Shown here one piece after another: positions 46,408 to 63,859 of a stretch of DNA of 64,000 nt; positions within the stretch are counted from its first letter, which is position 1, and each line of letters begins with the position of its first letter. Source of the DNA: Halothiobacillus sp. (lineage in GTDB: Bacteria; Pseudomonadota; Gammaproteobacteria; JAAZVP01); assembly GCA_018623495.1 (NCBI GenBank), contig JAAZVP010000004.1:2016-66015 (forward strand), read 5' to 3'. A model generated the notes under the pieces. The model did not search any database. It was not told the DNA's origin and worked only from the letters and a program-made list of their open reading frames with translations. Both the position numbers and the translations under genes were made by a program.

Positions 46408-47757
46408 TCAGTCGCCGCTGCCCGGGGGCCGGCGCAGGAGCTGGCGCACCATCCAGGCCAGTATCGACAGCCCGCCGAGCAGGACCCCCCAGAGCACCAC
46501 CCGGGACCAGGGAAAGGGCGCTCGGGGCGGTTGCAGCCGCCCGGCACCGCCCAGGGCGAAGGGTTCGCCCGCGGTGGCGGGGCCGGCGAGTCGCTCGCGC
46601 TCGCCGCCGTCGAGACCGGCCAGCAGCCCCGCGGCCGGCCGGTGGTGGCGCGTCGATTCGTGGCTGCCCCAGGCGAGGGTGTAGGGCCCGGGTCCCTCGG
46701 CCACGAAGGTCAGCCGATGGGCCACCCAGCCCAGGGCGAGTACCGGGGGCCGGCCGGGGTCCGGTTCCAGTGCCAGGCGCCACTGCCGGTCGCCGTTGGG
46801 CGGGAAGGCCAGCGGGTCGCTTTCCAGCACCAGGCCGTCATGCGCCAGCCGGTGGGCGCCGCCCCGTGCCCGCGGCTGCCACGGCGCCGCGGCCGTCGGC
46901 CGCGACTCCAGGCGCAGCTGGCGGACGAAGTTGCGGGCGTCGCTCTCCAGCCGCGCCCGGTCCACGGGGAATCGGCCGCCGATGTCCAGCCGGTAGCCGT
47001 CGGCCGGGTCGGCTGCACGTCGCGGCGCCGGTCTCAGCCAGTTGCGGGGCCGCGGGGCCTGGCGGGGCTCGAAGCCGGCCTCGACGCCTTCGAGGGTGAC
47101 TTCGGCGAGCGCCGTCGGCCAGTCGATGCGCAGGTAGCGGGCCTCGGTCGGCGGGAGGTCGATGCGCCGCCGAACCAGCCGCGTCCCGTCGGCCGCGAGG
47201 TCGGCCACCGCCGCCCTCGCCACCAGCTTCCGCCAGTCGGCGAGGTCGTCGCCGGCGAATACCGCCAGCCGGCCGGCGAAGCCCGCGTCGGTCGGCCGCT
47301 GCCACTGCAGGGTGATCCGGGTGGGTGGCGACTCCAGACCGCCGAGGTCCACCACCCAGGCGGTGACCCGGTCGCGGGTGGCGGATTCGTCGTCGCTGCG
47401 GATCAGGGTGCCGTCGTCCCGGGTGATGATCTCCAGCCGCCGGCTCCCGGACTGCCCCTGCACGCGCAGCGGGAAGGCCGGCAGTTCCACGGCCGCCGGC
47501 GCCGTCCCGGGCCGCGTTCGGGGGTGGGTCAGGCGCAATGGAACCGGCTGGCCGTCGGCGTTGAATACCGCCAGATCGTCCAGCCGGGGACTGACCGCGT
47601 CGCGGTAGACCGCCGTCGGCACCTCCAGCGAGCGGATCGGCGCGCTGCCCGGGGTCGCGAGCTCGGCACCGAAGGCGAAGTCCGTGGGCTCGATGGCCGC
47701 GGCCGGGCCGGCAGCGAGGAGGACGGCCAGGGCGAGCAGGGCGTCAATCCGGGACAT
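46408..47757 (-). CDS. DUF3999 family protein
   Basis: Signal peptide, DLAVFNADG..VP, GDDL..WR, F.A.GPGPYTLAWG and a C-terminal TM (LWGVLLGG...L..M...L); follows DUF2339. Confidence 0.8.
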   Translation of the reverse strand: MSRIDALLALAVLLAAGPAAAIEPTDFAFGAELATPGSAPIRSLEVPTAVYRDAVSPRLDDLAVFNADGQPVPLRLTHPRTRPGTAPAAVELPAFPLRVQGQSGSRRLEIITRDDGTLIRSDDESATRDRVTAWVVDLGGLESPPTRITLQWQRPTDAGFAGRLAVFAGDDLADWRKLVARAAVADLAADGTRLVRRRIDLPPTEARYLRIDWPTALAEVTLEGVEAGFEPRQAPRPRNWLRPAPRRAADPADGYRLDIGGRFPVDRARLESDARNFVRQLRLESRPTAAAPWQPRARGGAHRLAHDGLVLESDPLAFPPNGDRQWRLALEPDPGRPPVLALGWVAHRLTFVAEGPGPYTLAWGSHESTRHHRPAAGLLAGLDGGERERLAGPATAGEPFALGGAGRLQPPRAPFPWSRVVLWGVLLGGLSILAWMVRQLLRRPPGSGD

Positions 47758-52472: not shown

Positions 52473-54353
52473 ATGCGGTCTGGATGGGTCGGCAACCTGG
52501 GGGTGATGCTTATCGTCGGTCTCGGCTACTTCGCCGGGGCCTGGCTGGGCGTGACCCAGACCATCACCCCCGAGGGCATCGCCATCCTCTGGCCGCCCAA
52601 CGCCGTGGCCCTGGCGGCCCTGCTGATCCTGCCCGTGCGCCGGTGGCCCTGGGTGGTGCCGGCGGTGCTGGCCGCCGAGTTCGTCGCCGACGTGCCCGCC
52701 TTCCCGCCCTGGGCGGCCATCGCCTTCGGCCTGGTGAATCTCCTCGAGGTCTTCCTGGCGGCCGCGCTGATCCGTGGATCGAGCGCCGGGTCCTTCGATT
52801 TCGATCGCCTGTCCCGGGCGGCGCGTTTCGTGCTCTACGCGCCGGTGCTGGCCTCGGCGCTGGCGGCCGTTCTGGGTGCCGGTGTCTACCTGCTGCTGGG
52901 GCGCGGCGAGACGGGGTTCCTCTTTCTCTGGCGCACGTGGTGGTTCGGTGACGCCCTGGGCCTGTTGTTGCTCACCCCGCCGCTGGTGGTCTTCTGGCGG
53001 TGGCTGGAGGGCGGTCGGCGTGACCGGCAGGGGTCCCGGTTCGCCGAGCTGGCGCTGGTCTGGGCCGCGATCGTCGGCCTGGGCCTGCTGGCCTTCTCGG
53101 CACCCGACCCCTACCTGCTCACCGTGCAGCTCTCGCCGGTGGTGCTGCTGCCCTTCGTGATCTGGGCGGCAGTGCGTTTCGGCGTGCCGGGGGCGGCGGC
53201 CACCGTGGTGCTGGTGGCGGCGCTGGCCATCTTCGAGATGGTGCATGGCCACGCCCCCTTCGGTGACCTGCCGGCCAACTACGCCGTCTGGGTCGTGCAG
53301 GAATACCTGGCGGTGGTGGCCTTGCTCGGCACCGGGCTGGCGATCCTGCTCCACGAGATCGAGCAACAGCGACTGCAGTTGCGCCTCCAGGGGCGGGCGA
53401 TGCGCGACACCAACGATGCCATCGTGATCGCCGACGCCCGCCGGCCGGACCGGCCCATCACCTGGGTGAACGCCCAGTTCGAGGCACTCTTCGGCTACAC
53501 CGCCGAGGAGGCCGTGGGCCGCAACTGCCGTTTTCTCAATGCCCCCGAGCCGGACCAGCCCGGCCTGGACACGGTGCGCGAGGCCCTGGCCGAGGACCGG
53601 GCCTGCCGCGCGGTGGTGCGCAATTACCGCAAGTCCGGCGAGCCGTTGTGGATCGAGCTGAGCATCGCCCCGGTGACCGGCCAGCGGGGCGAGATCACCC
53701 ACTTCGTGGGGGTGCAGCACGATCTCACCGAGCAAAAGCGTATCGAGGACGAGCTGCGCGAGGCCCACGCGGCCCTCACGCGCCAGAACGCCGAGCTCGA
53801 GGAGCGGGTGAGCGAGCGCACCCGGGCCCTGCGAGAGGCCAATGCCCGCCTCGAGGAGCTGGCCTCCACCGACCGGCTCACCGGGATCGCCAACCGCTGG
53901 CACTTCCTGGAGCTCGCCGAGCGGGAGCTGGACCGGCGGCGGGCCTCGGGTGAACCCCTGGCGCTGGTGATGCTCGACCTGGACCACTTCAAGGGGGTCA
54001 ACGACCGCTATGGCCACCTGGCCGGGGACCGGGCGCTGGCGGCGCTGGCCGAATGCGTCCGGGCCACCATACGGCCACTGGATCTCTGCGGGCGTTTCGG
54101 CGGCGAGGAGTTCCTGGTGCTCCTGCCGGGGATCGATGCAGAGGGGGCGCTGCACATCGCCGAGCGCCTGCGCAGCGCCATCGCCGCCACCCCGGTCGAA
54201 TTCGACGGCCAGGCCATCCCCATCGCCGCCAGCCTCGGCGTGGCCGCCTGGGACGGCCGGTCCGGCATCGACGACCTCATCCGCCGTGCCGACGAGGCCC
54301 TCTACCGGGCCAAGGCGGCGGGGCGCAACCGGGTGGTCGCGACGGTTTCTTGA
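52473..54353 (+). CDS. Diguanylate cyclase, MASE1-PAS(LOV-like)-GGDEF
   Basis: MASE1 (WPPNA, WWFGDALG), GRNCRFL PAS, coiled coil, D.LTGIANR, DLDHFK.VND.YGH.AGD, RPLD I-site, GGEEF. Confidence 0.93.
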   Translation: MRSGWVGNLGVMLIVGLGYFAGAWLGVTQTITPEGIAILWPPNAVALAALLILPVRRWPWVVPAVLAAEFVADVPAFPPWAAIAFGLVNLLEVFLAAALIRGSSAGSFDFDRLSRAARFVLYAPVLASALAAVLGAGVYLLLGRGETGFLFLWRTWWFGDALGLLLLTPPLVVFWRWLEGGRRDRQGSRFAELALVWAAIVGLGLLAFSAPDPYLLTVQLSPVVLLPFVIWAAVRFGVPGAAATVVLVAALAIFEMVHGHAPFGDLPANYAVWVVQEYLAVVALLGTGLAILLHEIEQQRLQLRLQGRAMRDTNDAIVIADARRPDRPITWVNAQFEALFGYTAEEAVGRNCRFLNAPEPDQPGLDTVREALAEDRACRAVVRNYRKSGEPLWIELSIAPVTGQRGEITHFVGVQHDLTEQKRIEDELREAHAALTRQNAELEERVSERTRALREANARLEELASTDRLTGIANRWHFLELAERELDRRRASGEPLALVMLDLDHFKGVNDRYGHLAGDRALAALAECVRATIRPLDLCGRFGGEEFLVLLPGIDAEGALHIAERLRSAIAATPVEFDGQAIPIAASLGVAAWDGRSGIDDLIRRADEALYRAKAAGRNRVVATVS

Positions 54354-54474
54354 AGGTTTCAGAAAGGCCGTCCAGGATGGACCGGCCGGTGGCATCCCGC
54401 CGGCAGGCTCCGGCGCGGCAAGGGAGGGCCCGGGAAAGCGGGGTGCCGGAGATTTCAGCCCAGATCGTGCATCG

Positions 54475-55314
54475 ATGCCTCCCATGTCCCAACGCGTCCG
54501 CAACCGCTGTTTCGTCGTCGGCGCCTCGCGCTCCGGTACCACGCTCGTCCAGCGCACCCTCGCCGCCCACGAGCGCGTCCATACCTTTCCCGAGACGGGG
54601 GTCTTCCTCAAGGCCCTGGGCATGCGCCGGCCCGCGCCCTGGGCGTGGTTCGGCTGGAGCTCCGGCCGGGAAATCCGCCAGCTGCGGAACCTGGCCCGCA
54701 CGCTGGGGCAAGACGCCCCGCTGCCAGCGGCCCGGCCGAGACCGCTGGGACGGGCCGCCGCTCATGTCCAGGCGGCACTGGATGCCTGGGCGGAGGCGGC
54801 CGGGGCCGACTGCTGGCTGGAAAAGACGCCCCGGCATTTCATCCACGCGGGCCGCATCACGCGGCTGGTGGAAGGGGCGAGGATGGTGCACGTGGTGCGC
54901 GACGGGCGCGAGGTGGTGGCCTCCATCGTCGATCGCGCCCGGCGCTATCCCCACCGCTTTCCGCGCCAGCGCGATCCGGGCTATGCCGTACGCCTGTGGA
55001 ACCGCGCGGTACGCCACCACCGGGCCTGCCTGGGCCGGCCCGGCCACCGGCTGGTGCACTACGAGGCCCTGGTGGACGACCCGGAAGGCGTGGTCCGTTC
55101 GCTGTGCGAATGGCTGGACCTGGAGTTCTGCCCGTCGATGCTCGACCCCCGTTCCACCGCGGGCTTCGTCCGCGAGGGCGAGGCCTGGAAAGCGGGTGCC
55201 GGGCGGCCCATCCACCCCCCGCAGGGCAAGTTCGACCGGCTCTTCGACCCGGCGAGCCGGGCCCGGATCGAGCGGGCCCTGGACTGGCGCAGCTACGCCC
55301 GCCTGTCACGGTGA
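54475..55314 (+). CDS. Sulfotransferase family protein
   Basis: 5'-PSB FVVGASRSGTTL, WLEKTP.H, 3'-PB HVVRDGR.VVAS, YEALV.DPE. Confidence 0.9.
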   Translation: MPPMSQRVRNRCFVVGASRSGTTLVQRTLAAHERVHTFPETGVFLKALGMRRPAPWAWFGWSSGREIRQLRNLARTLGQDAPLPAARPRPLGRAAAHVQAALDAWAEAAGADCWLEKTPRHFIHAGRITRLVEGARMVHVVRDGREVVASIVDRARRYPHRFPRQRDPGYAVRLWNRAVRHHRACLGRPGHRLVHYEALVDDPEGVVRSLCEWLDLEFCPSMLDPRSTAGFVREGEAWKAGAGRPIHPPQGKFDRLFDPASRARIERALDWRSYARLSR

Positions 55315-55444
55315 GCCGGGGGCGCGGGAGGCGGGTTGTTGCCGGAAGGCGCCCGGCGTGGACAAAATACCCCGGTCAAGGTAGGGCAAAGACCCCGCTT
55401 TGAGTACACTGTAGAAAAAGAACGAGCGCCAATGGAGGACGAGC

Positions 55445-55906
55445 ATGGAGGAGCACGGCAACCAGAAGGGCAGCCAGGGCACGGTGCTGGTGGAGCGCGA
55501 CCGGGCGAGCATGGCCACCATCGACGTGCCCAAGGACGAGCCGGTGGACCTGGACGAGCCCGCGCTGGTGGGCGTGAGTGGTGATTTTCGTGACCAGCGG
55601 TTTCGTCTCGGGCCGGGCAAGACCACCATCGGTCGGCGACCGGACAGCGATATCGTCCTGCCCGATGACAGCGTCTCTTCCCTGCATGCCTGGATCATCA
55701 AGGACAAGAGCGGCTACCGGGTGATGAACATCCTCTCCACCAACGGCACCTTCGTGAACGACCGCAAGATCACCGAGGAGGTCGTGGAACAGGGCGACCG
55801 GATCCGGTTCGGCGGGGTGGAGCTGGTATTGCACACCGGCCTGGACGCCGGAGGCGGCACGGCCGCCGCGCCGCGGGCTGGGCGCGGTGGCTGGCCGGGT
55901 TGGTGA
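55445..55906 (+). CDS. FHA domain protein (likely frameshifted C-terminal TM; may extend to 55953)
   Basis: IGRR..SDI...D.SVS..HA, STNGTFVN, GD.I.FG; GGAGG RBS. Confidence 0.92.
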   Translation: MEEHGNQKGSQGTVLVERDRASMATIDVPKDEPVDLDEPALVGVSGDFRDQRFRLGPGKTTIGRRPDSDIVLPDDSVSSLHAWIIKDKSGYRVMNILSTNGTFVNDRKITEEVVEQGDRIRFGGVELVLHTGLDAGGGTAAAPRAGRGGWPGW

Positions 55907-56002
55907 TCGTGGCCGCCCTGGGGGCCGGCGCGTGGTTGTGGCTGGCACCATGAGCCGGGCTCGACCGGCGGTTCCCGCCCCGACGCAAGGGCATCGGAGG
56001 CA

Positions 56003-57814
56003 ATGATGGCCAGGCGTTTCGGGCGCTACGAGCTGCGCGAGGAACTCGGCCGCGGGGCAATGGCGATCATCTACCGCGCGATCGATCCCCGGATCGGCCG
56101 CCCGGTGGCGATCAAGACCCTGCGGGACGAGTTCGCCTCGCGGCCGGAATACCGTCGCCGGTTCCTGCAGGAGGCCCGGGCGGCGGGCACCCTGAGCCAT
56201 CCGAGCATCGTCACCATCTTCGACGTCGGCGAGATCGATGGCTGCCCGTTCATCGCCATGGAGCTGCTCGAGCACGTCACGCTCGACCGCTTCGTCCAGG
56301 AGCAGGGCGGGCGCCTGGAGTTGCCGCTGCTGCTGCGCATCGCCATCCAGGTGGCCGACGCCCTGGATTTCGCCCACCGCCGGGGCATCGTCCACCAGGA
56401 CATCAAGCCGGAAAACATCGCCATCACCAGCGCCAACGGCGACATCAAGGTGATGGACTTCGGCATCGCCCGCATCCTCAGCCAGGACGAGTGGCAGGAG
56501 CACACCAGCAACAGCGAATACCTCTCGGGGACCCCGCAGTACATGTCGCCCGAGCAGATCACCGACTCCACCATCGACGGGCGCAGTGACCTCTACGCCC
56601 TGGGGGTGATGCTCTTCGAGCTGCTCGCCGGCCACGCGCCCTACGAGGACGACGACCACTGGTCGCTGTGGCGCCGGGTGCTCAACGAGCCCTTGCCCCG
56701 GTTGCGTCCGCGGGACAAGGACACCCCCGAAACGCTGGTGGAGCTGGTGCTGACCCTGCTCGCCAAGCGCCCCGAGGACCGTTACCAGTCCGCCTCGGGC
56801 GTGCTCGCCGACCTGCATTCCGTCCAGCAGGAGCTCGCCGAGCGCAACAGCAACTGGTGGATGCGCCAGATCATCCCCCTGGGGGTGCGCTGGTCGCTCT
56901 TGATGGGCGTGGTGATGACGGTGGTCATGGTCATCGGCCTGCTGGTGGTCTCCCAGCGCCAGAACGACGCGATCTCCGAGATGGCCTTCGACTACGGCTT
57001 CTCGCTTTCCGAGTGGGTGGCCACCCAGACCGCCGAGGACCTGCTGCTGCAGGACCGGCTCGCGCTGCAGGCCTGGGTGTCCAGCATGGGCAACAACGCC
57101 AAGATCGTGTTCATGGAGATCCGCGGGCCGGAAGGCGGGATCGTCGCGCGCAGCTACGGTGCGGGGGTCGACGGCACGGTGGCCGAGCAGTTGCGGGCGG
57201 ACCGGGTGGTGGCCACCCGCGGCGAACAGAAGGTCTACGAGGTGCGCACCGACGAGGGCCGGGCCTTCGACGTCTTCGAGATGCCCATCGCCTACCAGGG
57301 ACACCGGATCGGCCGCCTGCACGTGGGCCTGACCACCGATTCGCTGGCCGCGGCCAACCGGACCATGTGGATCACGCTGGTGCTCTGGATCGTGGGCATC
57401 CTGGTGGTGGTCGTGGTGGGGACCTACTGGCTGGGCTGGCGGATGCGCGTGCCCCTCAAGGTGCTCGACAATGCCCTCGACCAGATCAAGGAGGGCCACC
57501 TCGAGCACCGGATCCCCCAGCATCGCCGGGACGAATTCGAGGAAACCTTCGCCAGCTTCAACACCATGGCCGACGCCATCGAGGCCCGGGCCCTGCGGGC
57601 CGCCGGTCGCAGCAGGATGGCGGGGGACGGCGAGGGCGTGGCCCGCGCCGGCGACGGCACGGTCTGCCTGGAAAAACCGGAAGGGGAGGCCGCCGGGGAG
57701 GACCCGGCGGCGCAGGACAGCGTCAGCCCCACGGTCATCGAGGATCCCGGCAACATCCGCCGGGAACGGGAAGGCGAGTCCGGGGAAGGTCCGCGCCGGC
57801 GGATCGGTGGCTGA
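56003..57814 (+). CDS. Hanks-type Ser/Thr kinase with TM-periplasmic-TM-HAMP C-terminal region
   Basis: LGRGAM, VAIK, HQDIKPEN, DFG, GTPQYMSPEQ, RSDLY; two TM helices; HAMP (PL..L......I..G....RI...RRDEF...F..FN.MA). Confidence 0.93.
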   Translation: MMARRFGRYELREELGRGAMAIIYRAIDPRIGRPVAIKTLRDEFASRPEYRRRFLQEARAAGTLSHPSIVTIFDVGEIDGCPFIAMELLEHVTLDRFVQEQGGRLELPLLLRIAIQVADALDFAHRRGIVHQDIKPENIAITSANGDIKVMDFGIARILSQDEWQEHTSNSEYLSGTPQYMSPEQITDSTIDGRSDLYALGVMLFELLAGHAPYEDDDHWSLWRRVLNEPLPRLRPRDKDTPETLVELVLTLLAKRPEDRYQSASGVLADLHSVQQELAERNSNWWMRQIIPLGVRWSLLMGVVMTVVMVIGLLVVSQRQNDAISEMAFDYGFSLSEWVATQTAEDLLLQDRLALQAWVSSMGNNAKIVFMEIRGPEGGIVARSYGAGVDGTVAEQLRADRVVATRGEQKVYEVRTDEGRAFDVFEMPIAYQGHRIGRLHVGLTTDSLAAANRTMWITLVLWIVGILVVVVVGTYWLGWRMRVPLKVLDNALDQIKEGHLEHRIPQHRRDEFEETFASFNTMADAIEARALRAAGRSRMAGDGEGVARAGDGTVCLEKPEGEAAGEDPAAQDSVSPTVIEDPGNIRREREGESGEGPRRRIGG

Positions 57815-57852
57815 AGGCGGTCGGGGCCGGGCCCTGACCCCCGCCGCCGTGT

Positions 57853-58758
57853 TCAGTCGCCGCGTTCGTCCAGCTGCTGGAGGCGACGGCGGAGTTCCAT
57901 GGCCCGGGCGCGGTAGCCCAGCGCCGCCTGGTAGTCGGGGGCGATCTCCAGGGCCCGGTTCCACAGATCGATCGCACGGTCCAGGTCATGCGCCTGGTAG
58001 GCGGCCAGTGCGCGCTCGTGGTAGCGGGTGGCGATCTGCCGGGCCAGCGCCTGCATGTGGCGTTTCGCCGGTTGCAACGTCGGTTCGATGGCCACCGCGC
58101 GCTTGAATGCCAGGTAGGCGGTCTTGTCCTCGCCCCGTTCCAGCGCCTCCAGCCCGGTCGCCTGGTGATCCAGCGCGGCTGGCGCGTATTCCGGCGCACC
58201 CCCCGCCGGCGCCTCGGCCGTTTTTTCATCGCGTCCGGCGTCTTCGGATCTCGGCATCTTTTCGGTTTTCTCGCCGTGGTCGCTCGCCGGCAGCTTGATC
58301 ACCTGGCCCACGCGCAGGTTGCGGCTCACGTCGATCCCGTTGTAGCGCGCGAGGATTACGAATTTCATCGGGTTGCCCAGGTGCTCGGCGGCCAGTGCCC
58401 CCAGCGTGTCGCCCTCGCGGATGGCGTATTCGCGTGCCGGGGGGCCGAGGGCCTCGCGCGGGTCGGCCTCGAGCTGCGCCAGCAGGCTCTCGGCGGTGGG
58501 CGAGTCCGGGTGCACGTGCAGGTACCACTGGAGCACGCGGCGGCCCTTTTCCAGCTTGCCCTGCTCCAGCATGTCGATGATCGCGCCGATCTCCGGGGGC
58601 TCGGGGGGCGGTTCCGGCTCGGCGGGCTTCGCCGGCTCGGGCGCCGGGGCCGGCGGAGCCTCGGGCGGGGGCCCCTCCTGCTTGACGCCCAGCTGGTTGC
58701 AGCCCGCCACGACGGGCAGTAGCAGGAACAGCGGGATCAGTTGACGGCGAATCGGCAT
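57853..58758 (-). CDS. LysM- and TPR-containing lipoprotein
   Basis: Lipobox VVAGC, Pro-rich linker, LysM (YAIREGDTLG.LA...N.I.....L.VGQ.I.LP), C-terminal TPRs (AIDLWNRALEIAPD). Confidence 0.88.
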   Translation of the reverse strand: MPIRRQLIPLFLLLPVVAGCNQLGVKQEGPPPEAPPAPAPEPAKPAEPEPPPEPPEIGAIIDMLEQGKLEKGRRVLQWYLHVHPDSPTAESLLAQLEADPREALGPPAREYAIREGDTLGALAAEHLGNPMKFVILARYNGIDVSRNLRVGQVIKLPASDHGEKTEKMPRSEDAGRDEKTAEAPAGGAPEYAPAALDHQATGLEALERGEDKTAYLAFKRAVAIEPTLQPAKRHMQALARQIATRYHERALAAYQAHDLDRAIDLWNRALEIAPDYQAALGYRARAMELRRRLQQLDERGD

Positions 58759-58782
58759 TGGGTTGCTGCGGTTCTCTGCGAT

Positions 58783-59589
58783 TTACGTGGGACAACGGCC
58801 TATCGGCAGGGGAAGCCTGCCCAGCCAGCCGGACGGCCGGGAGCGCCAGACGGCGAGGCCGATGTTGTCCCCCTTCGGCCCGCCGCGGTGCGCCGCCTCG
58901 GCCACCCAGCCCGAGACACTCGTCGGCAGGTGGCGGGCGTCGAGCATGTCGGCGAGGGCCTCGCGGGGTTCAATGGTATCCCAGAAACCGTCGGAGCACA
59001 GGAAAAAGGCCATGCACGGCGCCACCGACATCTGCCCCTGGGCCGGCTGCACCTCGTCCTCCATCCCCAGCACCCGCAACAGCTGGTTGCGTTGCGCGTG
59101 GACGCGGACCTCGTCCTCGCCGATCCGGCCCTGGTCCACCAGCGCCTGGACCAGCGAATGGTCGCGGGTGCGGTGGACCAGCCGGCCGTTGCGAAAGCAG
59201 TAGAGCCGGCTGTCGCCCACGTGCAGCCAGTAGGCCCGCCGGGGCGTGACCAGCAGCGCGACGAGGGTGGAGAAACCCTGGCCGCCGTGGCCGGCGGAAC
59301 GCTCGCGGATGGCCTCGTTGGACTGCCGGCAGAGGTCGCGGAGAAAGCCGGCCGGGTCGCTGGGGACCGTCTCCAGGTCGGCGAAGCACTCGCCCGCCAG
59401 CTCCACGATCGTCTGCGCCGCCAGCGCGCCGCCCCGGTGGCCGCCCACGCCGTCGGCGACCACCAGCAGCCGCATCGAGCCATCCGCCGACGTGCGGCAG
59501 AGCACACGGTCCTGCTGGCTGGCGCGACCGCCGATGTGGCTGTCGCAACCGATGGCATCCTTGAAACCGCCGCGTCTACCCAGGATCAC
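58783..59589 (-). CDS. PP2C/PPM family Ser/Thr phosphatase (start 59589 or 59604)
   Basis: GGR..QQDR, VVADG.GGH.GG, HVGDSRLY, TRDHS, RN.L.R.LG, LCSDG, GDN. Confidence 0.93.
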   Translation of the reverse strand: MILGRRGGFKDAIGCDSHIGGRASQQDRVLCRTSADGSMRLLVVADGVGGHRGGALAAQTIVELAGECFADLETVPSDPAGFLRDLCRQSNEAIRERSAGHGGQGFSTLVALLVTPRRAYWLHVGDSRLYCFRNGRLVHRTRDHSLVQALVDQGRIGEDEVRVHAQRNQLLRVLGMEDEVQPAQGQMSVAPCMAFFLCSDGFWDTIEPREALADMLDARHLPTSVSGWVAEAAHRGGPKGDNIGLAVWRSRPSGWLGRLPLPIGRCPT

Positions 59590-59778
59590 TCCCTGCTTCC
59601 CCAACCGGGCGCCGGCGGCCGGGCCGCCTCGGGCGCGAAGATCTCCCGTGATGCTAGCACGGATGGCGCCCGCGCCGTCGCCGCGGGCGCCTGCGGGCGG
59701 CGGGGATCGGCCACTTGCACCGCTCGCCTGGTTTGGCGCAACAGTGGCGGTCGGCCTGGATCGGTGGGGCCGCCGTCC

Positions 59779-61029
59779 TTATCCCGCCGTGCTGAAATGC
59801 CGCCGGAAGCGGGCCATGGCCACCAGGAAGACGGCCAGGCCGATGGCGGCCATCATGACGAGTTCGTCTTTCACGATGGCCAGATCCGCGTCGCGGAAGA
59901 GCACGGCCATGGAGAAGTCCACGTAGTAGCGCAGCGGGGAGATGGCCATCAGGTCCCGCAGCCAGCCGGGCATGGATTCGGCGGGGGTGAACACCCCGGA
60001 GAGAAAGACCATGGGCGTGACCACCAGCATCAGTACCAGCACGAACTGCGCCACGGTGCGCACCAGGGTGGCCAGCACCATGCCGATGGCGGTGGCGGAG
60101 AACTGGTAGACCAGGGTCCCCAGCAGGAACAGCGGTGTAGAACCGGGGATGGGAGTGGCCAGCACGTTGCCGATGATGATCCACAGTGACAGAGTGGCCC
60201 CGACCTGCACCACCAGGGCATTCGACCCGATCTTGGCCAGCATGATCTCCGCCGGGGTCAGGGGCATGACCAGCAGGTGCTCGATGGTGCCGTGTTCCTG
60301 CTCGCGGATCAGGGCGGCGGCGGGGAGCATGATGGAGAGCACGGTGACCATCAGCAGCAGCTCCGCCACGCCCAGAAACCAGGTGGCTTCGGCGTTGGCG
60401 TTGTACTGGATGCGGACCACGGCATCGATCGGCGGGGCCCGCTCGCTGGATTGCAGAAAGCGGCGGGTCTCGTCCTCGATGATGCGCTGGATGTAGACCG
60501 CGCCGGTGAAGGCCTGGCCCACGGCCGTGGCGTCCACGTTGAGCTGCACGGTGGGCGATTGGCCCGCCACCAGGTCGGCCTGGAAGTCCGGCGGGATGTC
60601 CAACACGAAGGTGTAGCGGCCGGAATCCAGAGCCTCGTCGATGGCGTCGACCGAAATGCGTTCCGGCGGCTGGAACTCGGGTTCCTGGAAGCCGGCCACG
60701 ATCCGCTGGGCCACCGTGGAGCGATCCTCGTCGACCACTGCCACGGCGGCGTTTTTCACCTGCACCGCCTGGTCGGTGGCGGTGATGATGTCCAGGGAGA
60801 AGGCATAGACCACGAACAGCAGCAGGATCGGGTCGTGGCGCAGGCTGGCCAGTTCCTTGATGCCGAGGTGAAAGATCCGCAAACACCCCGAGAGAACTGC
60901 TGCGCCACCCGATGGCTGCGTTGGGAGGTGCTCGCTTCCTCGCCTATCTGCTTGATATGTCTCGGGCGCTGCGCGCCTTCCGCCTTGCCCTCGGGTCGCT
61001 CGCGACGCTCTCTCAGGGTGTTTGTTCAT
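59779..61029 (-). CDS. yhhJ: ABC-2 type permease (YhhJ-like) with N-terminal element-derived extension
   Basis: LGIKEL.SL.HD, AVVDED.S, IPPDF..DL.AG, IREQEHGTIEHLLVMPL, LSG..TP.ESMP. Confidence 0.88.
   Translation of the reverse strand: MNKHPERASRATRGQGGRRAAPETYQADRRGSEHLPTQPSGGAAVLSGCLRIFHLGIKELASLRHDPILLLFVVYAFSLDIITATDQAVQVKNAAVAVVDEDRSTVAQRIVAGFQEPEFQPPERISVDAIDEALDSGRYTFVLDIPPDFQADLVAGQSPTVQLNVDATAVGQAFTGAVYIQRIIEDETRRFLQSSERAPPIDAVVRIQYNANAEATWFLGVAELLLMVTVLSIMLPAAALIREQEHGTIEHLLVMPLTPAEIMLAKIGSNALVVQVGATLSLWIIIGNVLATPIPGSTPLFLLGTLVYQFSATAIGMVLATLVRTVAQFVLVLMLVVTPMVFLSGVFTPAESMPGWLRDLMAISPLRYYVDFSMAVLFRDADLAIVKDELVMMAAIGLAVFLVAMARFRRHFSTAG
60881..61023. mobile_element. 143-bp MITE/RPE-like palindromic element
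   Basis: Terminal inverted repeats aaacaccccgagaga / tctctcagggtgttt (14/15 match); internal self-complementarity; lower GC than the surrounding genes. Confidence 0.8.
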
Positions 61030-61030
61030 C

Positions 61031-63859
61031 TCAGCGCTCCCGCTTGCGCAGCAGCAGGGTGCTGGCCGCCGTGATCACCGCGAAGAAGATCACCAGGGCC
61101 GCGTAGTCGTCCAGCAGCGGGGCGATCCCCAGGTCCTTGGTGAAGGTGCCCACCGAGATGTTGAGGAAGTAGGTGGTGGGGAACAGGTTGCCGAACAGCC
61201 AGGATCCGCCCTCCAGGCTGGAGACGGGTGAGAGCAGCCCCGAGTACTGGAAGGAGGGGATCATGGTCAGGATCAGGGTGACGAACGAGGCGGCCACCTG
61301 GGTGCGGGTGAAGATCGAGATCAGCAGCCCGATGCTGGTGGCCGCGAAGGCGAAGGGGATGGCCCCCAGCACCAGGGCGGTGATGCTGCCGCCGATGGGC
61401 ACGTCGAACAGCAACACCGTCAGCCCGGCCAGGATGACGAAATTGAGGAAGGTGATCACCGCATAGGGCAGCTGCTTGCCCCACAAGAACTCCAGCTTGC
61501 GGGTGGGCGTGGCGTAGAAGTTGGTGATCGAGCCCAGCTCGCGCTCGCGGACCACGGCCACCGCGGTGAGCATGGCCGGGATCAGCACCAGGATGGCGGC
61601 GATCAGCCCGGGGACGAAGGCGTTTTTCGAGAGCAGGGCCTGGTTGTACCAGTAGCGGGTGGCCACGTTCACGTCGGCCGCCAGCAGGGCCTCCAGGCCA
61701 CGATCCCGGGCCAGGCGCTCGACATGATCGGCATGCACCCCCAGGGCATAACCCCGGGCGGTCTCGGCCCGGTAGGGCATGGTGCCCTCGATGCGCAGGG
61801 CCACCTCGGTGGGCCGCCCCGAGCGCAGGTCGGCACCGAAATCCGGAGGGATCTCGATGCCCAGGCGCGTCTGTCCCTGCTGGAAGCTCTTTTCCATGGC
61901 CGCCTGGCTGTCCACGGTCACGATCTTCTCGAAGTAGGGCGAGGCCGCAAAGGCCTGCACGTACTCCCGGCTTTCGGGGCTCCGGTCCTGGTCGAGAACG
62001 GCAAAGGGCAGGCGCTGGATGTCCAGGTTCAGGCCGAAGCCGAAGATCAGCATGAGCATCACGGGCACCAGGAAGGCGGAGAACAGCCGGAAGGGATCGC
62101 GCCAGATTTGCAGGGTTTCCCGCCAGGCGAGCGCGACCAGGCGGGCGGGGGAGAAGCCCCTTGCCCTCACCCCAACCCCTCTCCCGGAGGGAGAGGGGCC
62201 AACGGCAGCATTCGGCGCTTTCCCGTGATTCGATGGGCCACCATCGGCGGCATTCGTTGCTTTCCCACGGTCGAGGGGAGCACCCATAGCCCCTCTCCCT
62301 GGGGGAGAGGGGTTGGGGTGAGGGGATGAACCCTCCCCCCGATCCTCCCGGATGTATTCCACGAAGGCCGCCTCCAGGTCGCTGGCGCCCCTGGACTCGA
62401 TCAGTCCCTCGGGGGTGTCGCAGGCCAGGATGTGGCCGGCGTTCATCAGAGCCACGCGGTCGCAGCGCATGGCCTCGGCCAGGTAGTGGGTGGAGACGAA
62501 GATGGTGGTGCCAAAGTCCCGGGCCAGTTCCTGGAGCCGGGCCCAGAACAGGTCGCGGGCCACGGGATCGACCCCGGAGGTGGGCTCGTCCAGGATGAGG
62601 ATGGCCGGTCGGTGGATCACCGCCACGGCCAGCGAGAGCCGCTGGCGCAGGCCCAGCGGCAGGTCGCTGGCGGTCTCGTTGCGAACCCCTTCCAGGTCGT
62701 AGCGGTCGAGGGTTTCCGTCACCCGTTCGCCGATTGCTCCGGGTGGCACACCGAACAGCCGGGCGTGCAGGGCGAGGTTCTGGCCCACGGTGAGCTCGCC
62801 GTAGAGCGAGAAGCTCTGGGACATGTAGCCCAGGTTGCGCCGCAGGTCGCGATCGCCGGCCTTCACCTTGCGGCCGAAGAGCTCGGCCTCGCCCGCCGAC
62901 GGGCGCAGCAGCCCGGTGACCATCTTCATGGTGGTGGTCTTGCCGCAGCCGTTGGGGCCCACGAAGCCGAAGATCTCGCCGCGGCCGATCTGGAAGTCCA
63001 CGCCGTCCACCGCGGTGAACGAGCCGAAGCGCCGGGTCAGTCCCCGGGCCTCCACGGCGGGCTCGGCGTATGGTGTCGGGCGCCCCTCGTCCTCGAAGGC
63101 GGCGTGGCCCTGGCGCTTGTCCTCGGGGAGCAGGCGGATATAGGCATTGTCCAGGGTATCGGCCCCGGTGCGTTGCTTGAGCTCGGCGGGTGTGCCCTCG
63201 GCGATGAGGCGGCCGTCGTTCATCATGGCCAGACCGTCGAAGCGATCGGCCTCGGGCATGTAGGAGGTGGCCACGATCACCGCCATCCGCGGGGCGTGTT
63301 CCCGCATCCGCTGGATCAGTTCCCAGAACTCTTCCCGGGAGAGGGGATCGACCCCGGTGGTGGGTTCGTCGAGCAGCAGCAGGTCGGGCTCGTGGATCAG
63401 GGCGCAGCAGAGCCCCAGTTTCTGCTTCATCCCCCCGGAGAGGTTGCGGGCCCGGCGCCGGGCGAACGGGGCCAGGCCGGTGGCGGCCATCAGCTCGTCG
63501 CGGCGCTGGCGAAGGCGGGCCCGGGGGATGGAGAAGAGCCGGCCGAAGAAGTCGATGTTCTCCGCCACGGAGAGTTCGCCGTAGAGGTTCTGCCCCAGCC
63601 CCTGGGGCATGAAGGCGATGCGGTGGCAGACCGCGAGGCGGTGGTGCTCCCGGGCCATGTCCCCGCCCAGGACCGCGATCTCGCCCGACTGGACGTGTTT
63701 CACCCCGGCGATCAGCCCCAGCAGGGTGGACTTGCCCACGCCGTCCGGGCCGATCACCCCGAACAGCCGGCCCTCGTCCACGGCGAGGTCCACGCCGCGC
63801 AGGGCGGGGGTGTCGCCGTAGCGGTGGGCGGCTCCGCGGACGTGGACGGCCTCAGCCAT
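61031..63859 (-). CDS. rbbA: RbbA/YhiH-like ABC protein (two ATPase domains plus permease)
   Basis: GPDGVGKS, MPQGLG.NLY, LSGGMKQKLGLCCALIH, GPNGCGKT, LPLG.RQRLSLAVA, DEPTSGVDP, VRERELGSI.NFY.TP. Confidence 0.92.
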   Translation of the reverse strand: MAEAVHVRGAAHRYGDTPALRGVDLAVDEGRLFGVIGPDGVGKSTLLGLIAGVKHVQSGEIAVLGGDMAREHHRLAVCHRIAFMPQGLGQNLYGELSVAENIDFFGRLFSIPRARLRQRRDELMAATGLAPFARRRARNLSGGMKQKLGLCCALIHEPDLLLLDEPTTGVDPLSREEFWELIQRMREHAPRMAVIVATSYMPEADRFDGLAMMNDGRLIAEGTPAELKQRTGADTLDNAYIRLLPEDKRQGHAAFEDEGRPTPYAEPAVEARGLTRRFGSFTAVDGVDFQIGRGEIFGFVGPNGCGKTTTMKMVTGLLRPSAGEAELFGRKVKAGDRDLRRNLGYMSQSFSLYGELTVGQNLALHARLFGVPPGAIGERVTETLDRYDLEGVRNETASDLPLGLRQRLSLAVAVIHRPAILILDEPTSGVDPVARDLFWARLQELARDFGTTIFVSTHYLAEAMRCDRVALMNAGHILACDTPEGLIESRGASDLEAAFVEYIREDRGEGSSPHPNPSPPGRGAMGAPLDRGKATNAADGGPSNHGKAPNAAVGPSPSGRGVGVRARGFSPARLVALAWRETLQIWRDPFRLFSAFLVPVMLMLIFGFGLNLDIQRLPFAVLDQDRSPESREYVQAFAASPYFEKIVTVDSQAAMEKSFQQGQTRLGIEIPPDFGADLRSGRPTEVALRIEGTMPYRAETARGYALGVHADHVERLARDRGLEALLAADVNVATRYWYNQALLSKNAFVPGLIAAILVLIPAMLTAVAVVRERELGSITNFYATPTRKLEFLWGKQLPYAVITFLNFVILAGLTVLLFDVPIGGSITALVLGAIPFAFAATSIGLLISIFTRTQVAASFVTLILTMIPSFQYSGLLSPVSSLEGGSWLFGNLFPTTYFLNISVGTFTKDLGIAPLLDDYAALVIFFAVITAASTLLLRKRER
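62164..62324. repeat. Inverted pair of 35-bp CCCTCACCCCAACCCCTCTCCC-type palindromic elements, in-frame in rbbA
   Basis: 62164-62198 and 62290-62324 are reverse complements (33/35). Each holds a CCCCTCTCCC..GGGAGAGGGG hairpin, and a 42-bp-period direct repeat lies between them. Confidence 0.9.

What the first reader, a model, noticed from the sequence alone, without database searches (positions are those of the whole stretch)
55445..59604. Self-contained four-gene Ser/Thr phospho-signalling module (FHA, kinase-HAMP receptor, LysM-TPR lipoprotein, PP2C) with no T6SS
Seen: two convergent gene pairs encoding a reader (FHA), a writer (membrane Hanks kinase), an eraser (PP2C) and an envelope lipoprotein with LysM and TPR domains. 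Known: in Proteobacteria, Fha/PpkA/PppA trios usually regulate type VI secretion, but no tss genes occur in this window and the flanks are a sulfotransferase and an ABC operon. Inference: a trans-envelope pathway in which the peptidoglycan-binding lipoprotein engages the periplasmic domain of the kinase and signals to the FHA protein. This is the best candidate for an undescribed system here.
Basis: partly seen in the sequence, partly recalled or inferred. Interest (0 to 1): 0.78.

Follow-up and report, generated by a model that had tools for sequence, protein, structure and literature searches.

The report
Cell-envelope Ser/Thr signalling cassette without T6SS
Four adjacent genes encode this bacterium's only serine/threonine kinase, phosphatase and phospho-threonine reader plus a cell-wall-binding outer-membrane lipoprotein, a conserved cassette that probably monitors the cell envelope and whose sister version switches on a bacterial weapon in other species.

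Summary
The four genes are an FHA protein, a Hanks kinase fused to a Cache-like sensor and a terminal HAMP, a LysM-TPR lipoprotein and a PP2C phosphatase. They are the only Pkinase, FHA and PP2C_2 matches in a 99%-complete genome, which gave no match to any T6SS query.

The same cassette, in the same order, recurs complete in 17 of 30 loci of one kinase clade: Halothiobacillus, Guyparkeria, Thioalkalivibrio, Dyella and Thauera relatives. None of the 30 loci holds a T6SS gene.

The sister clade (54 loci, mostly Burkholderiales) adds a deacetylase and a TPR gene. It is often embedded in T6SS clusters beside TagH, TagF and TssM. The module is therefore a T6SS-independent relative of a T6SS trigger.

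Kinase and lipoprotein co-distribute almost perfectly: 12 shared, 1 lipoprotein only, 0 kinase only, in 201 genomes. A complex prediction gives only weak support for binding.

Two points are new:
- The FHA proteins are tail-anchored membrane proteins with a conserved N-terminal Gly-Thr motif.
- In this genome a one-base frameshift cuts off the anchor.

Most likely function (inferred): peptidoglycan or envelope surveillance, analogous to PknB/PstP/FhaB. I found no description of the module in print. Verdict: new variant of a known kind.

The parts
55445..55906 (+). FHA-domain gene as it reads now (153 aa). It has an N-terminal conserved Gly-Thr motif (residues about 11-16) and an FHA domain at residues 60-123.
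   Evidence: Pfam FHA, E 5e-18. The alignment of 26 homologues shows the conserved G-T-x-L/F motif and the FHA pThr-binding residues GR, SxxH and NG. It is the only FHA match in the genome.
55876..55953 (+). Detached 3' end of the FHA gene. It codes for the tail-anchor transmembrane helix in the -1 frame relative to the FHA domain, which implies a one-base frameshift between about 55840 and 55895.
   Evidence: Three-frame translation. 25 of 26 homologues end in such a helix preceded by W-x-W. Contigs of two runs are identical over 55300-56300.
56003..57814 (+). Membrane Hanks-type Ser/Thr kinase (603 aa). Order of parts: cytoplasmic kinase domain (residues 9-262), TM1 (about 297-317), periplasmic Cache/PDC-like sensor (about 318-455), TM2 (about 455-478), cytoplasmic terminal HAMP (476-527) and a low-complexity tail.
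   Evidence: Pfam. AlphaFold model of residues 285-546, pLDDT 79.6. Foldseek: the WalK sensor plus HAMP model 9a5d_A, E 1.5e-9, TMq 0.69; WalK extracellular domain 4ywz, E 3.5e-4. It is the only Pkinase match in the genome. The catalytic K38, D133, N138 and DFG are invariant, and the HRD arginine is Q here.
57853..58758 (-). Lipoprotein (301 aa). Order of parts: signal peptide with lipobox Cys20, Pro/Ala/Glu-rich tether, short TPR-like hairpin, LysM domain (111-157), variable linker and C-terminal TPR (about 196-300). It converges on the kinase gene with a 38-nt gap.
   Evidence: Pfam LysM and TPR. The lipobox Cys is invariant in 31 of 31 sequences. The family holds at least 819 proteins. It co-distributes with the kinase.
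58783..59604 (-). PP2C-type Ser/Thr phosphatase (273 aa from a TTG start), 24 nt upstream of the lipoprotein gene on the same strand.
   Evidence: Pfam PP2C_2, E 1.5e-17. NCBIfam Stp1/IreP, 157 bits, below the 230-bit cut-off. It is the only PP2C_2 match in the genome.

Best explanation
This is a self-contained, T6SS-independent trans-envelope Ser/Thr phospho-signalling cassette. It is the organism's only such system.

Proposed mechanism:
1. An outer-membrane lipoprotein binds peptidoglycan through its LysM domain and reaches the inner membrane through its tether and TPR domains.
2. There it acts on the periplasmic Cache/PDC-like sensor of a dimeric membrane kinase. The kinase's terminal HAMP and N-terminal Hanks domain sit in the cytoplasm.
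3. The kinase is a non-RD type. It phosphorylates the conserved N-terminal Gly-Thr motif of a small, normally tail-anchored FHA protein, and possibly other targets.
4. The FHA domain reads that phospho-threonine in cis or in trans, which switches the adaptor's state at the membrane.
5. The PP2C phosphatase resets the system.

The likely input is the state of the cell wall or envelope. The downstream output is not known. By analogy with PknB/PstP/FhaB it is probably cell-wall growth or division.

Shown: the gene content, the domains, the conservation, the independence from T6SS, the kinase-lipoprotein co-distribution and the frameshift. Inferred: binding, the phospho-acceptor site, the signal and the output.
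For: Domains and topology.

Sole system: the genome has exactly one Pkinase, one FHA and one PP2C_2 match, all in this cassette.

Conservation:
- A scan of genome contigs found 135 relatives of the sensor-HAMP part, of which the best 80 were kept.
- On a tree of 84 kinases the window falls in a clade of 30, separated from the other 54 with 100% SH-aLRT support.
- In those 30 loci the FHA gene lies directly upstream in 30 of 30. The lipoprotein gene is present in 23 of 30, PP2C in 17 of 30, and all four in the same order in 17 of 30. Two further loci are cut by a contig end.
- Nothing else around the cassette is conserved between genera.

T6SS independence:
- No T6SS gene in 0 of 30 loci or in the whole window.
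- TssC is present in 3 of 14 genomes tested, never within 36 kb of the cassette.

Kinase-lipoprotein coupling:
- In 201 genomes of another family (200 genera), 12 have the kinase and 13 have the full-length lipoprotein. 12 have both, 1 has the lipoprotein only and none has the kinase only.
- In 10 of those 12 genomes the two genes lie on one contig, 2-3 kb apart in nine and about 11 kb apart in G513.

Complex prediction, sensor residues 316-458 with lipoprotein residues 56-301:
- ipSAE was 0.38 in each of 3 runs, against a best control of 0.00. The tool's verdict is 'weak support'.
- The mark was reached by 58 of 80 solved complexes and by 2 of 110 mismatched pairs. At a score of 0.60 or under, only 7 of those 80 passed, and both passing mismatches scored in that range.
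- The runs agree in at least 77% of contacts, and the partner's pLDDT is at least 74.

FHA adaptor: the Gly-Thr motif is invariant in 26 of 26 sequences, the pThr-binding residues are intact, and a tail anchor is present in 25 of 26.

Nearest named families are the Gram-positive cell-wall trio, all below their cut-offs: PknB-PASTA catalytic domain 301 bits, Stp1/IreP 157 bits, FhaB/FipA 62 bits. TagH scores 43 bits.

The sensor fold resembles that of WalK, a cell-wall homeostasis sensor controlled by accessory extracytoplasmic proteins (WalK's role is from my own knowledge).
Against: - No experiment bears on any step.
- The complex score is weak. By the tool's own calibration such a pass is more often wrong than right unless the guess was likely beforehand.
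- 7 of 30 clade members lack the lipoprotein gene next to the kinase, and 11 lack PP2C there. The core is therefore the FHA-kinase pair, and the lipoprotein is dispensable in some lineages (Halothiobacillus neapolitanus type, several Thioalkalivibrio).
- The Cache-like pocket could bind a small ligand of its own.
- In this genome the FHA gene has lost its membrane anchor by a frameshift. The local copy may be impaired or working differently.
- LysM also binds chitin oligomers, so peptidoglycan is not proven as the ligand.
- The output is unknown.
- ORFs in related loci were called with my own heuristic. It failed at least once, at the sulfotransferase gene.
- The tree is a quick LG+G4 search with a midpoint root only.
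Confidence: 0.55

Rival explanations
1. The kinase is a ligand-sensing receptor. Its Cache-like domain binds a small periplasmic molecule (a nutrient, a muropeptide or a chito-oligosaccharide). The LysM-TPR lipoprotein is only a scaffold or localiser, as TssW is for PpkA, and is not the sensor.
For: - The sensor has the sCache/PDC fold of CitA, DctB and chemoreceptor ligand-binding domains.
- 7 of 30 clade members have no lipoprotein gene beside the kinase.
- In Acidovorax citrulli an outer-membrane protein encoded between ppkA and fha positions PpkA rather than sensing (PMC12607579, passages read).
- In the sister clade a polysaccharide deacetylase follows the kinase, which points to a GlcNAc-type glycan as the ligand.
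Against: - Near-perfect co-distribution of kinase and lipoprotein in 201 genomes.
- No ligand-binding motif was identified.
- The sCache_3_2 match sits only at the cut-off.
Confidence: 0.2
2. The cassette is a decaying remnant of a T6SS threonine-phosphorylation pathway, left behind after loss of the T6SS. It has no present function in this organism.
For: - The sister clade is embedded in T6SS clusters.
- This genome has no T6SS.
- Its FHA gene is frameshifted.
Against: - The kinase, lipoprotein and PP2C ORFs are intact, with catalytic residues conserved.
- The compact cassette forms its own old clade. It has its own kind of FHA protein (short and tail-anchored, not TagH) and its own non-RD kinase signature. 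It is kept in at least five bacterial families without any T6SS gene nearby.
- 11 of 14 carrier genomes tested have no TssC.
Confidence: 0.1
3. The cassette is an anti-phage defence kinase system of the PD-T4-6 or Stk2 kind.
For: The kinase's catalytic domain matches PADLOC PD-T4-6 models strongly (303 bits), but only over residues 7-284. It also matches mad6 and PglW kinase models.
Against: - The match is to the generic Hanks domain only.
- The FHA protein and the lipoprotein match no PADLOC model.
- The architecture is that of an envelope receptor: two TM helices, a periplasmic sensor and a HAMP.
- The flanks are housekeeping or transport genes that differ between genera. They are not defence islands.
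Confidence: 0.05

Closest known systems
T6SS threonine phosphorylation pathway (TagE/PpkA, TagG/PppA, TagH/Fha1, with TagQRST or RtkS as activators) of Pseudomonas aeruginosa, Serratia and Agrobacterium (review PMC13584744, passages read)
   Same: Both have a membrane Hanks kinase, a PP2C eraser and an FHA reader, with an outer-membrane lipoprotein upstream (TagQ). The sister clade of the window's kinase sits beside TagH, PP2C, TagF and TssM.
   Different: - This genome and the 30 clade loci have no T6SS genes.
- The FHA protein is a short tail-anchored protein without the T6SS_FHA_C domain.
- The periplasmic part is Cache-like and is followed by a second TM helix and a HAMP, not PpkA's vWA domain (the vWA domain is recalled).
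- The lipoprotein is LysM-TPR, not TagQ.
TssW-PpkA-Fha axis of Acidovorax citrulli (PMC12607579, passages read)
   Same: A gene for an outer-membrane protein lies between the kinase and FHA genes. Its product binds the kinase and sets where the system works. This is the same logic as the LysM-TPR gene beside the kinase.
   Different: - It is T6SS-specific.
- The C-terminus of A. citrulli PpkA is periplasmic (PhoA fusion), so it has no second TM helix or HAMP.
- The text mentions neither LysM nor TPR in TssW.
- Homology of TssW to the window's lipoprotein could not be tested, because no sequence was at hand and the supplements are closed.
PknB/PstP/FhaA-FhaB cell-wall signalling cluster of Actinobacteria, and StkP/Stk1-Stp1 of Firmicutes (my own knowledge)
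   Same: A membrane Hanks kinase senses the cell wall outside the membrane, and is paired with a PP2C and small FHA proteins. These are the best-scoring NCBIfam models for three of the four proteins.
   Different: - There are no PASTA repeats. Peptidoglycan binding would be delegated to a separate LysM lipoprotein.
- All scores are below the families' cut-offs.
- The FHA protein is anchored at its C-terminus. FhaB is anchored at its N-terminus (recalled).
- The host is a Gram-negative bacterium.
Cache_heme-HAMP (CHH) receptor with a separate Ser/Thr kinase and PP2C in Pseudomonas azotoformans (bioRxiv 10.64898/2026.05.25.727664; abstract, section 5 and discussion read)
   Same: A periplasmic Cache domain, TM helices and a terminal HAMP with no downstream output domain, working with a PknB-like kinase and a PP2C. 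In that system the HAMP is the docking site and substrate of the kinase.
   Different: - Here the kinase domain is fused to the N-terminus of the receptor.
- The sensor has no cysteine, so it has no CXXCH haem site.
- The helical HAMP-binding repeats of the CHH kinase are absent.
- An FHA protein and a lipoprotein are added.
WalK (YycG) with YycH/YycI in Firmicutes
   Same: The best structural match of the sensor-TM-HAMP part. WalK is an extracytoplasmic sCache sensor plus HAMP, controlled by accessory extracytoplasmic proteins, that governs cell-wall homeostasis (its role is recalled).
   Different: WalK's output is a histidine kinase. Sequence identity is only 12-13%. The likeness is one of fold, not family membership.

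Membership tests
T6SS threonine phosphorylation pathway (TagE/TagG/TagH) | Membrane Hanks-type kinase and PP2C phosphatase encoded together | tested here: met
   Pfam Pkinase and PP2C_2.
T6SS threonine phosphorylation pathway (TagE/TagG/TagH) | FHA protein of the TagH type (FHA plus T6SS_FHA_C) | tested here: not met
   The window's FHA protein has only an FHA domain. TIGR03354 TagH scores 43 bits against a cut-off of 120. The TagH type occurs only in the sister clade.
T6SS threonine phosphorylation pathway (TagE/TagG/TagH) | T6SS core genes in the genome or locus | tested here: not met
   No match for PF05943 or PF05591. No tblastn match for 13 kinds of T6SS protein in the genome or in the 30 clade loci. 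Genome completeness is 98.97%.
Stk1/PknB PASTA kinases (NF033483) | Whole-protein score over the curated cut-off, and extracellular PASTA repeats | tested here: not met
   301 bits against a cut-off of 450, matching residues 7-282 only. There is no PASTA domain in Pfam, and the extracytoplasmic part is Cache-like.
Stp1/IreP PP2C phosphatases (NF033484) | Score over the curated cut-off | tested here: not met
   157 bits against a cut-off of 230. It is a member of Pfam PP2C_2 (64 bits against a cut-off of 24).
FhaB/FipA (NF049868) and OdhI/GarA (NF041660) | Score over the curated cut-off | tested here: not met
   62 bits against 125, and 56 bits against 200. The shared trait is a small FHA protein with a phosphorylatable N-terminal threonine, which is inferred here from a conserved Gly-Thr motif.
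CHH receptor-kinase system (Cache_heme-HAMP) | CXXCH haem site in the Cache domain | tested here: not met
   There is no cysteine in residues 318-455 of the kinase.
CHH receptor-kinase system (Cache_heme-HAMP) | Terminal HAMP without a downstream output domain | tested here: met
   The HAMP at 476-527 is the last domain. Homologues end right after it.
Bacterial lipoprotein with LysM (PF01476) and TPR | Lipobox cysteine after a signal peptide, a LysM domain and TPR repeats | tested here: met
   (lipobox). Cys is invariant in 31 of 31 sequences. LysM scores 28.7 bits against a cut-off of 20.9, and TPR_14 is over its cut-off.
Anti-phage kinase PD-T4-6 (PADLOC) | Match beyond the generic kinase domain, and a defence-island context | tested here: not met
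   The matches cover residues 7-284 only. The other three proteins have no defence match apart from a weak PP2C hit. The flanks are a sulfotransferase, a GGDEF protein and an ABC transporter.

The most novel reading that the evidence does not exclude
Gram-negative bacteria have a counterpart of the PASTA-kinase cell-wall checkpoint in which peptidoglycan recognition is handed to an outer-membrane LysM-TPR lipoprotein.

That lipoprotein spans the periplasm and gates a WalK-like Cache-HAMP sensor fused to a non-RD Hanks kinase. A tail-anchored FHA protein with a self-binding phospho-threonine motif is the only reader.

The same sensor unit, extended by a deacetylase and a TPR protein, was recruited as a so far undescribed cell-wall-damage trigger for T6SS firing in Burkholderiales, or it gave rise to the compact form.
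Probability: 0.3. Interest if true: 0.75.

Novelty: new variant of a known kind. Interest (0 to 1): 0.6.

Why it matters
Ser/Thr kinase, PP2C and FHA trios in Proteobacteria are known almost only as T6SS switches. How Gram-negative cells sense the state of their wall through Hanks kinases is largely open.

This work defines a compact, mobile-looking cassette that carries all Ser/Thr signalling of small-genome sulfur oxidisers and denitrifiers. It links the cassette by descent to a T6SS-embedded version and names concrete testable parts:
- the lipoprotein-sensor contact;
- the Gly-Thr motif of the FHA protein;
- the non-RD kinase;
- the terminal HAMP.

The T6SS-embedded sister module (kinase, deacetylase, TPR, LysM-TPR) would be a third kind of upstream activator of the threonine phosphorylation pathway, beside TagQRST and RtkS.

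Tried and rejected
- A 13-sequence alignment of the sensor was too divergent for the search for related loci. A 5-sequence alignment worked.
- Two literature searches failed on syntax and were rephrased.
- The sequencing-run search listed no RNA holder, so nothing can be said on expression.
- The promoter and terminator scan of 55200-59900 gave 0 promoter-like sites. It gave 3 terminator-like sites inside genes against 1.4 expected, and none in the 38-nt gap between the convergent genes. This was uninformative in DNA of 70% GC.
- Whether A. citrulli TssW is a LysM-TPR homologue could not be settled. The profile search of 5.8 billion proteins listed no Acidovorax name among the 120 rows shown, of at least 819 hits. 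Only 13 of 201 genomes of the Roseateles family have the full-length lipoprotein. The paper's supplements are closed.
- My GC3-based ORF caller chose a wrong-strand ORF (54277-55215, -) at the sulfotransferase gene. An ORF it labelled 'deacetylase' in L114 includes kinase HAMP sequence and gave spurious tblastn hits. Those hits were ignored.
- The idea that the adjacent MASE1-PAS-GGDEF gene, the sulfotransferase or the ABC genes belong to the module was dropped, because none is conserved next to the cassette in other genera.
- Programmed frameshifting in the FHA gene was considered. I saw no slippery heptamer by eye, and no test was run.


Full report
OBSERVATION

- FHA protein, 153 aa.
- Kinase, 603 aa: Pkinase at 9-262, sCache_3_2 at 322-451 (28.4 bits, exactly the cut-off), HAMP at 476-527.
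- LysM plus TPR protein, 301 aa, with a signal peptide and a lipobox cysteine.
- PP2C_2 phosphatase, 273 aa.

The flanks are also as stated. They are a Sulfotransfer_3 gene at 54010-55314 and ABC-2 transporter genes at 59779-63859.

The window is contig C43 of a 2.46-Mb genome of 110 contigs, 98.97% complete. The only runs that hold it are labelled marine metagenome. Among 40 relatives offered, none is closer than 'same class'.

ANATOMY

The kinase has a cytoplasmic catalytic domain, a first TM helix, about 140 periplasmic residues, a second TM helix and a cytoplasmic HAMP that is the last domain. Homologues end right after the HAMP.

An AlphaFold model of residues 285-546 has pLDDT 79.6 and pTM 0.52. 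It shows a long helix, a six-strand PDC/Cache sheet, a second long helix and a helix-loop-helix. Foldseek matches:
- the sensor-TM-HAMP part of WalK in an integrative WalK-YycH model (9a5d_A, E 1.5e-9, TMq 0.69);
- the WalK extracellular domain (4ywz, E 3.5e-4);
- CitA (1p0z, E 2e-3).
Sequence identity to these is 12-15%.

The catalytic lysine, the catalytic aspartate, the asparagine and DFG are invariant in 31 aligned kinases.

The lipoprotein has a Pro/Ala/Glu-rich tether, a TPR-like hairpin, LysM, a variable linker and a C-terminal TPR. The lipobox cysteine is invariant in 31 of 31 sequences. No homologue has Asp at +2. By the E. coli rule (recalled) this points to the outer membrane.

THE FHA PROTEIN

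The alignment of 26 homologues shows three conserved parts:
- an N-terminal motif with an invariant Gly-Thr followed by hydrophobic residues at +2 and +3;
- an FHA domain with the pThr-binding residues GR, SxxH and NG;
- a C-terminal TM helix preceded by W-x-W, present in 25 of 26.

The window's copy is the exception. Its reading frame stops after W-P-G-W. The helix is encoded in the -1 frame at about 55876-55953, so the gene carries a one-base frameshift.

Contigs assembled separately from two public runs of one study (depths 15 and 13) are identical to the window over 55300-56300. They may be the window's own source. An assembly slip is therefore unlikely but not excluded.

SELF-CONTAINED AND WITHOUT T6SS

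In this genome the Pkinase, FHA and PP2C_2 models each find exactly one match, the cassette's own genes. TssC and TssB models find nothing. Neither does tblastn with 13 kinds of T6SS protein taken from related loci.

RELATIVES

The sensor-HAMP part alone finds about 38 proteins in the 5.8-billion-protein set. All have Pkinase plus HAMP, and they include Halothiobacillus and Guyparkeria.

In a sample of 400 genomes of the class, 12 have strong matches. A scan of one genome per species (genome contigs) found 135 relatives, and the best 80 were kept.

I called ORFs in 88 stretches: part of the window, the 80 named loci and 7 earlier ones. I clustered the 1337 products and named the recurrent clusters with Pfam. 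Recurrent neighbours of the kinase, counted in loci:

| Neighbour | Loci |
|---|---|
| LysM-TPR | 61 |
| Polysaccharide deacetylase | 45 |
| PP2C | 42 |
| TPR protein | 27 |
| Short FHA | 26 |
| TagH-type FHA (FHA + T6SS_FHA_C) | 24 |

TssM, TagF, VgrG, DUF2169, DUF6484 and PAAR-like genes also recur.

TWO CLADES

I built a tree of 84 kinases. Four loci without a called full-length kinase ORF were left out. The method was quick IQ-TREE with LG+G4 and a midpoint root only. The tree splits with 100% SH-aLRT support into a clade of 30 and a clade of 54.

Clade I (30 loci) holds the window, with Halothiobacillus nearest at 58% identity. It also holds Guyparkeria, Thioalkalivibrio, Dyella, Rhodanobacter, Thauera, Pseudothauera, Azoarcus and MAGs.

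A six-frame HMM check of these 30 loci gave:
- the short FHA gene directly upstream of the kinase in 30 of 30;
- the lipoprotein gene, convergent and just downstream, in 23 of 30;
- PP2C behind the lipoprotein gene in 17 of 30;
- all four genes in the window's order in 17 of 30, with two more loci ending at a contig edge.

No T6SS gene lies in any of the 30 loci or anywhere in the 64-kb window.

Of 14 clade I genomes tested for TssC, 3 have it: a Dyella MAG, Rhodanobacter umsongensis and a Rhodocyclaceae MAG. In each it lies on another contig or at least 36 kb away. Genes around the cassette differ between genera.

Clade II (54 loci) has the kinase followed by a deacetylase and a TPR gene, with the LysM-TPR gene convergent.
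- In 27 loci, T6SS genes lie within 10 kb. A typical order is VgrG, DUF6484, DUF2169, kinase, deacetylase, TPR, LysM-TPR, TagH, PP2C, TagF, TssM, as in Roseateles, Rubrivivax and Albitalea.
- In one gammaproteobacterial genome the kinase abuts TssA, TssB, TssC, Hcp, TssE and TssF.
- Of 9 clade II genomes tested, 4 have TssC. Each time it is on the kinase's contig, 3-36 kb away. The other 5 have none.

The two clades also differ in the kinase itself. The HRD arginine is Q or H in 13 of 15 aligned clade I kinases and R in 16 of 16 clade II kinases. Clade II keeps a threonine pair in the activation loop that clade I lacks. Clade I kinases therefore look like non-RD kinases that do not depend on activation-loop phosphorylation (inference from general kinase knowledge).

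COUPLING OF KINASE AND LIPOPROTEIN

I searched the same sample of 201 genomes (200 genera) of the Roseateles family with both profiles.
- The full-length lipoprotein (E below 1e-50) occurs in 13 genomes.
- The kinase sensor-HAMP occurs in 12 genomes.
- 12 genomes have both, one has the lipoprotein only, none has the kinase only and 188 have neither.

Relatives are not independent, so no statistic is attached.

A complex prediction of the sensor (316-458) with the lipoprotein (56-301), each with a 31-row alignment, gave the following.
- ipSAE was 0.38 in all three runs, against 0.00 for the best of three controls. The tool's verdict is 'weak support'.
- Its calibration: 58 of 80 solved complexes and 2 of 110 mismatches reach the mark. 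At 0.60 or under, only 7 of the 80 pass, and both mismatches that pass fall in that range.
- The runs agree in at least 77% of contacts, and the partner's pLDDT is at least 74.

I take this as a small addition to a guess that was already likely from the genomic evidence.

MECHANISM

Shown: the parts, their topology as predicted, their conservation as a unit, and their independence from T6SS in this clade.

Inferred:
- the lipoprotein tethers to the outer membrane and to peptidoglycan, and contacts the sensor;
- the signal passes through the TM helices, with the terminal HAMP acting on the kinase domain of the same dimer;
- the kinase phosphorylates the Gly-Thr motif of the FHA protein;
- the FHA domain binds that motif, as GarA/OdhI does (recalled);
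- PP2C reverses it.

A recent preprint shows that a terminal, 'uncoupled' HAMP of a Cache receptor can be both the docking site and the substrate of a PknB-like kinase encoded next to a PP2C (10.64898/2026.05.25.727664; abstract, section 5 and discussion read). This makes such a role for the HAMP here plausible.

The output is unknown. The best-scoring named families are the Gram-positive cell-wall trio, all below their cut-offs: PknB-PASTA catalytic domain 301 bits, Stp1/IreP 157 bits, FhaB/FipA 62 bits. TagH scores only 43 bits. I therefore favour wall or envelope surveillance, with about 0.55 confidence.

In this particular genome the FHA protein would be soluble because of the frameshift. 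The module may be altered or partly disabled here.

COMPARISON WITH WHAT IS KNOWN

- T6SS threonine phosphorylation pathway. A 2026 review lists TagE, TagG and TagH, with TagQRST and RtkS as activators (PMC13584744, passages read). The window's cassette fails two of the pathway's defining features: a TagH-type FHA and the presence of a T6SS.
- TssW-PpkA-Fha in Acidovorax citrulli. An outer-membrane protein is encoded between ppkA and fha, and it binds and positions the kinase (PMC12607579, passages read). Homology to the LysM-TPR protein could not be tested.
- Searches for the module itself found nothing that describes it. The term sets were: T6SS, threonine phosphorylation pathway, HAMP, LysM; FHA, Hanks, HAMP, Cache, PP2C; PpkA, PppA, HAMP; LysM, tetratricopeptide, lipoprotein, threonine kinase, FHA, phosphatase (0 papers); Pkinase, HAMP, sCache. 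The library lacks most subscription journals.

VERDICT

- a T6SS-embedded sister module exists;
- the FHA adaptor is a membrane-anchored family, and its gene is frameshifted here;
- lipoprotein-sensor binding rests on genomic coupling plus only weak predicted support.

It is a new variant of a known kind of system. Interest is moderate to high.

Noticed in passing
L107 (Roseateles sp. MS654), L123, L125, L128 and other clade II loci; also L043 (G140): A T6SS-embedded sister module. A Pkinase-Cache-HAMP kinase is followed by a polysaccharide deacetylase (PF01522) and a TPR protein, with a convergent LysM-TPR lipoprotein, next to TagH, PP2C, TagF, TssM, VgrG and DUF2169. This could be an undescribed upstream sensor of the T6SS threonine phosphorylation pathway.
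   Followed up: partly
L044 / L094 (G031, Gammaproteobacteria bacterium Ga0074134): TssM, TagF, PP2C and a TagH-type FHA gene lie right beside the kinase. Even so, the TssC model finds nothing in this 100%-complete genome. It is either a T6SS remnant or a divergent sheath.
   Followed up: no
alignment A3; window 56396-56398 (codon 132 of the kinase): Clade I kinases have replaced the HRD arginine with Q or H (13 of 15) and lack the activation-loop threonine pair. All 16 clade II kinases keep both. This is a regulatory change that goes with the loss of the T6SS context.
   Followed up: partly
window 52473-54353 (+) and 54010-55314 (+): A MASE1-PAS-GGDEF diguanylate cyclase gene lies just upstream. 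The longest sulfotransferase ORF overlaps its end by 344 nt, so the sulfotransferase probably starts later. Neither gene is conserved next to the cassette elsewhere.
   Followed up: no
window 46408-50443 (-): An adjacent DUF3999 (449 aa) and DUF2339 (899 aa, predicted membrane protein) gene pair, next to an MCP gene at 45000-46332.
   Followed up: no
G000:C76:4549-5274 (-), outside the window: A second Cache-HAMP-like match to the sensor query in the same genome (E 2.5e-12), inside a 1027-aa open frame. It is not a Hanks kinase, since the genome has only one Pkinase match.
   Followed up: no
L091 and L096 (Azohydromonas): Two kinase genes of the family lie back to back with a GNAT acetyltransferase gene between them.
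   Followed up: no
L052, L053 (Halothiobacillus neapolitanus type) and L063-L065, L067 (Thioalkalivibrio): These clade I loci keep only the FHA-kinase pair. The lipoprotein and PP2C genes are replaced by unrelated genes. They are natural 'minimal' versions, useful for comparison.
   Followed up: no
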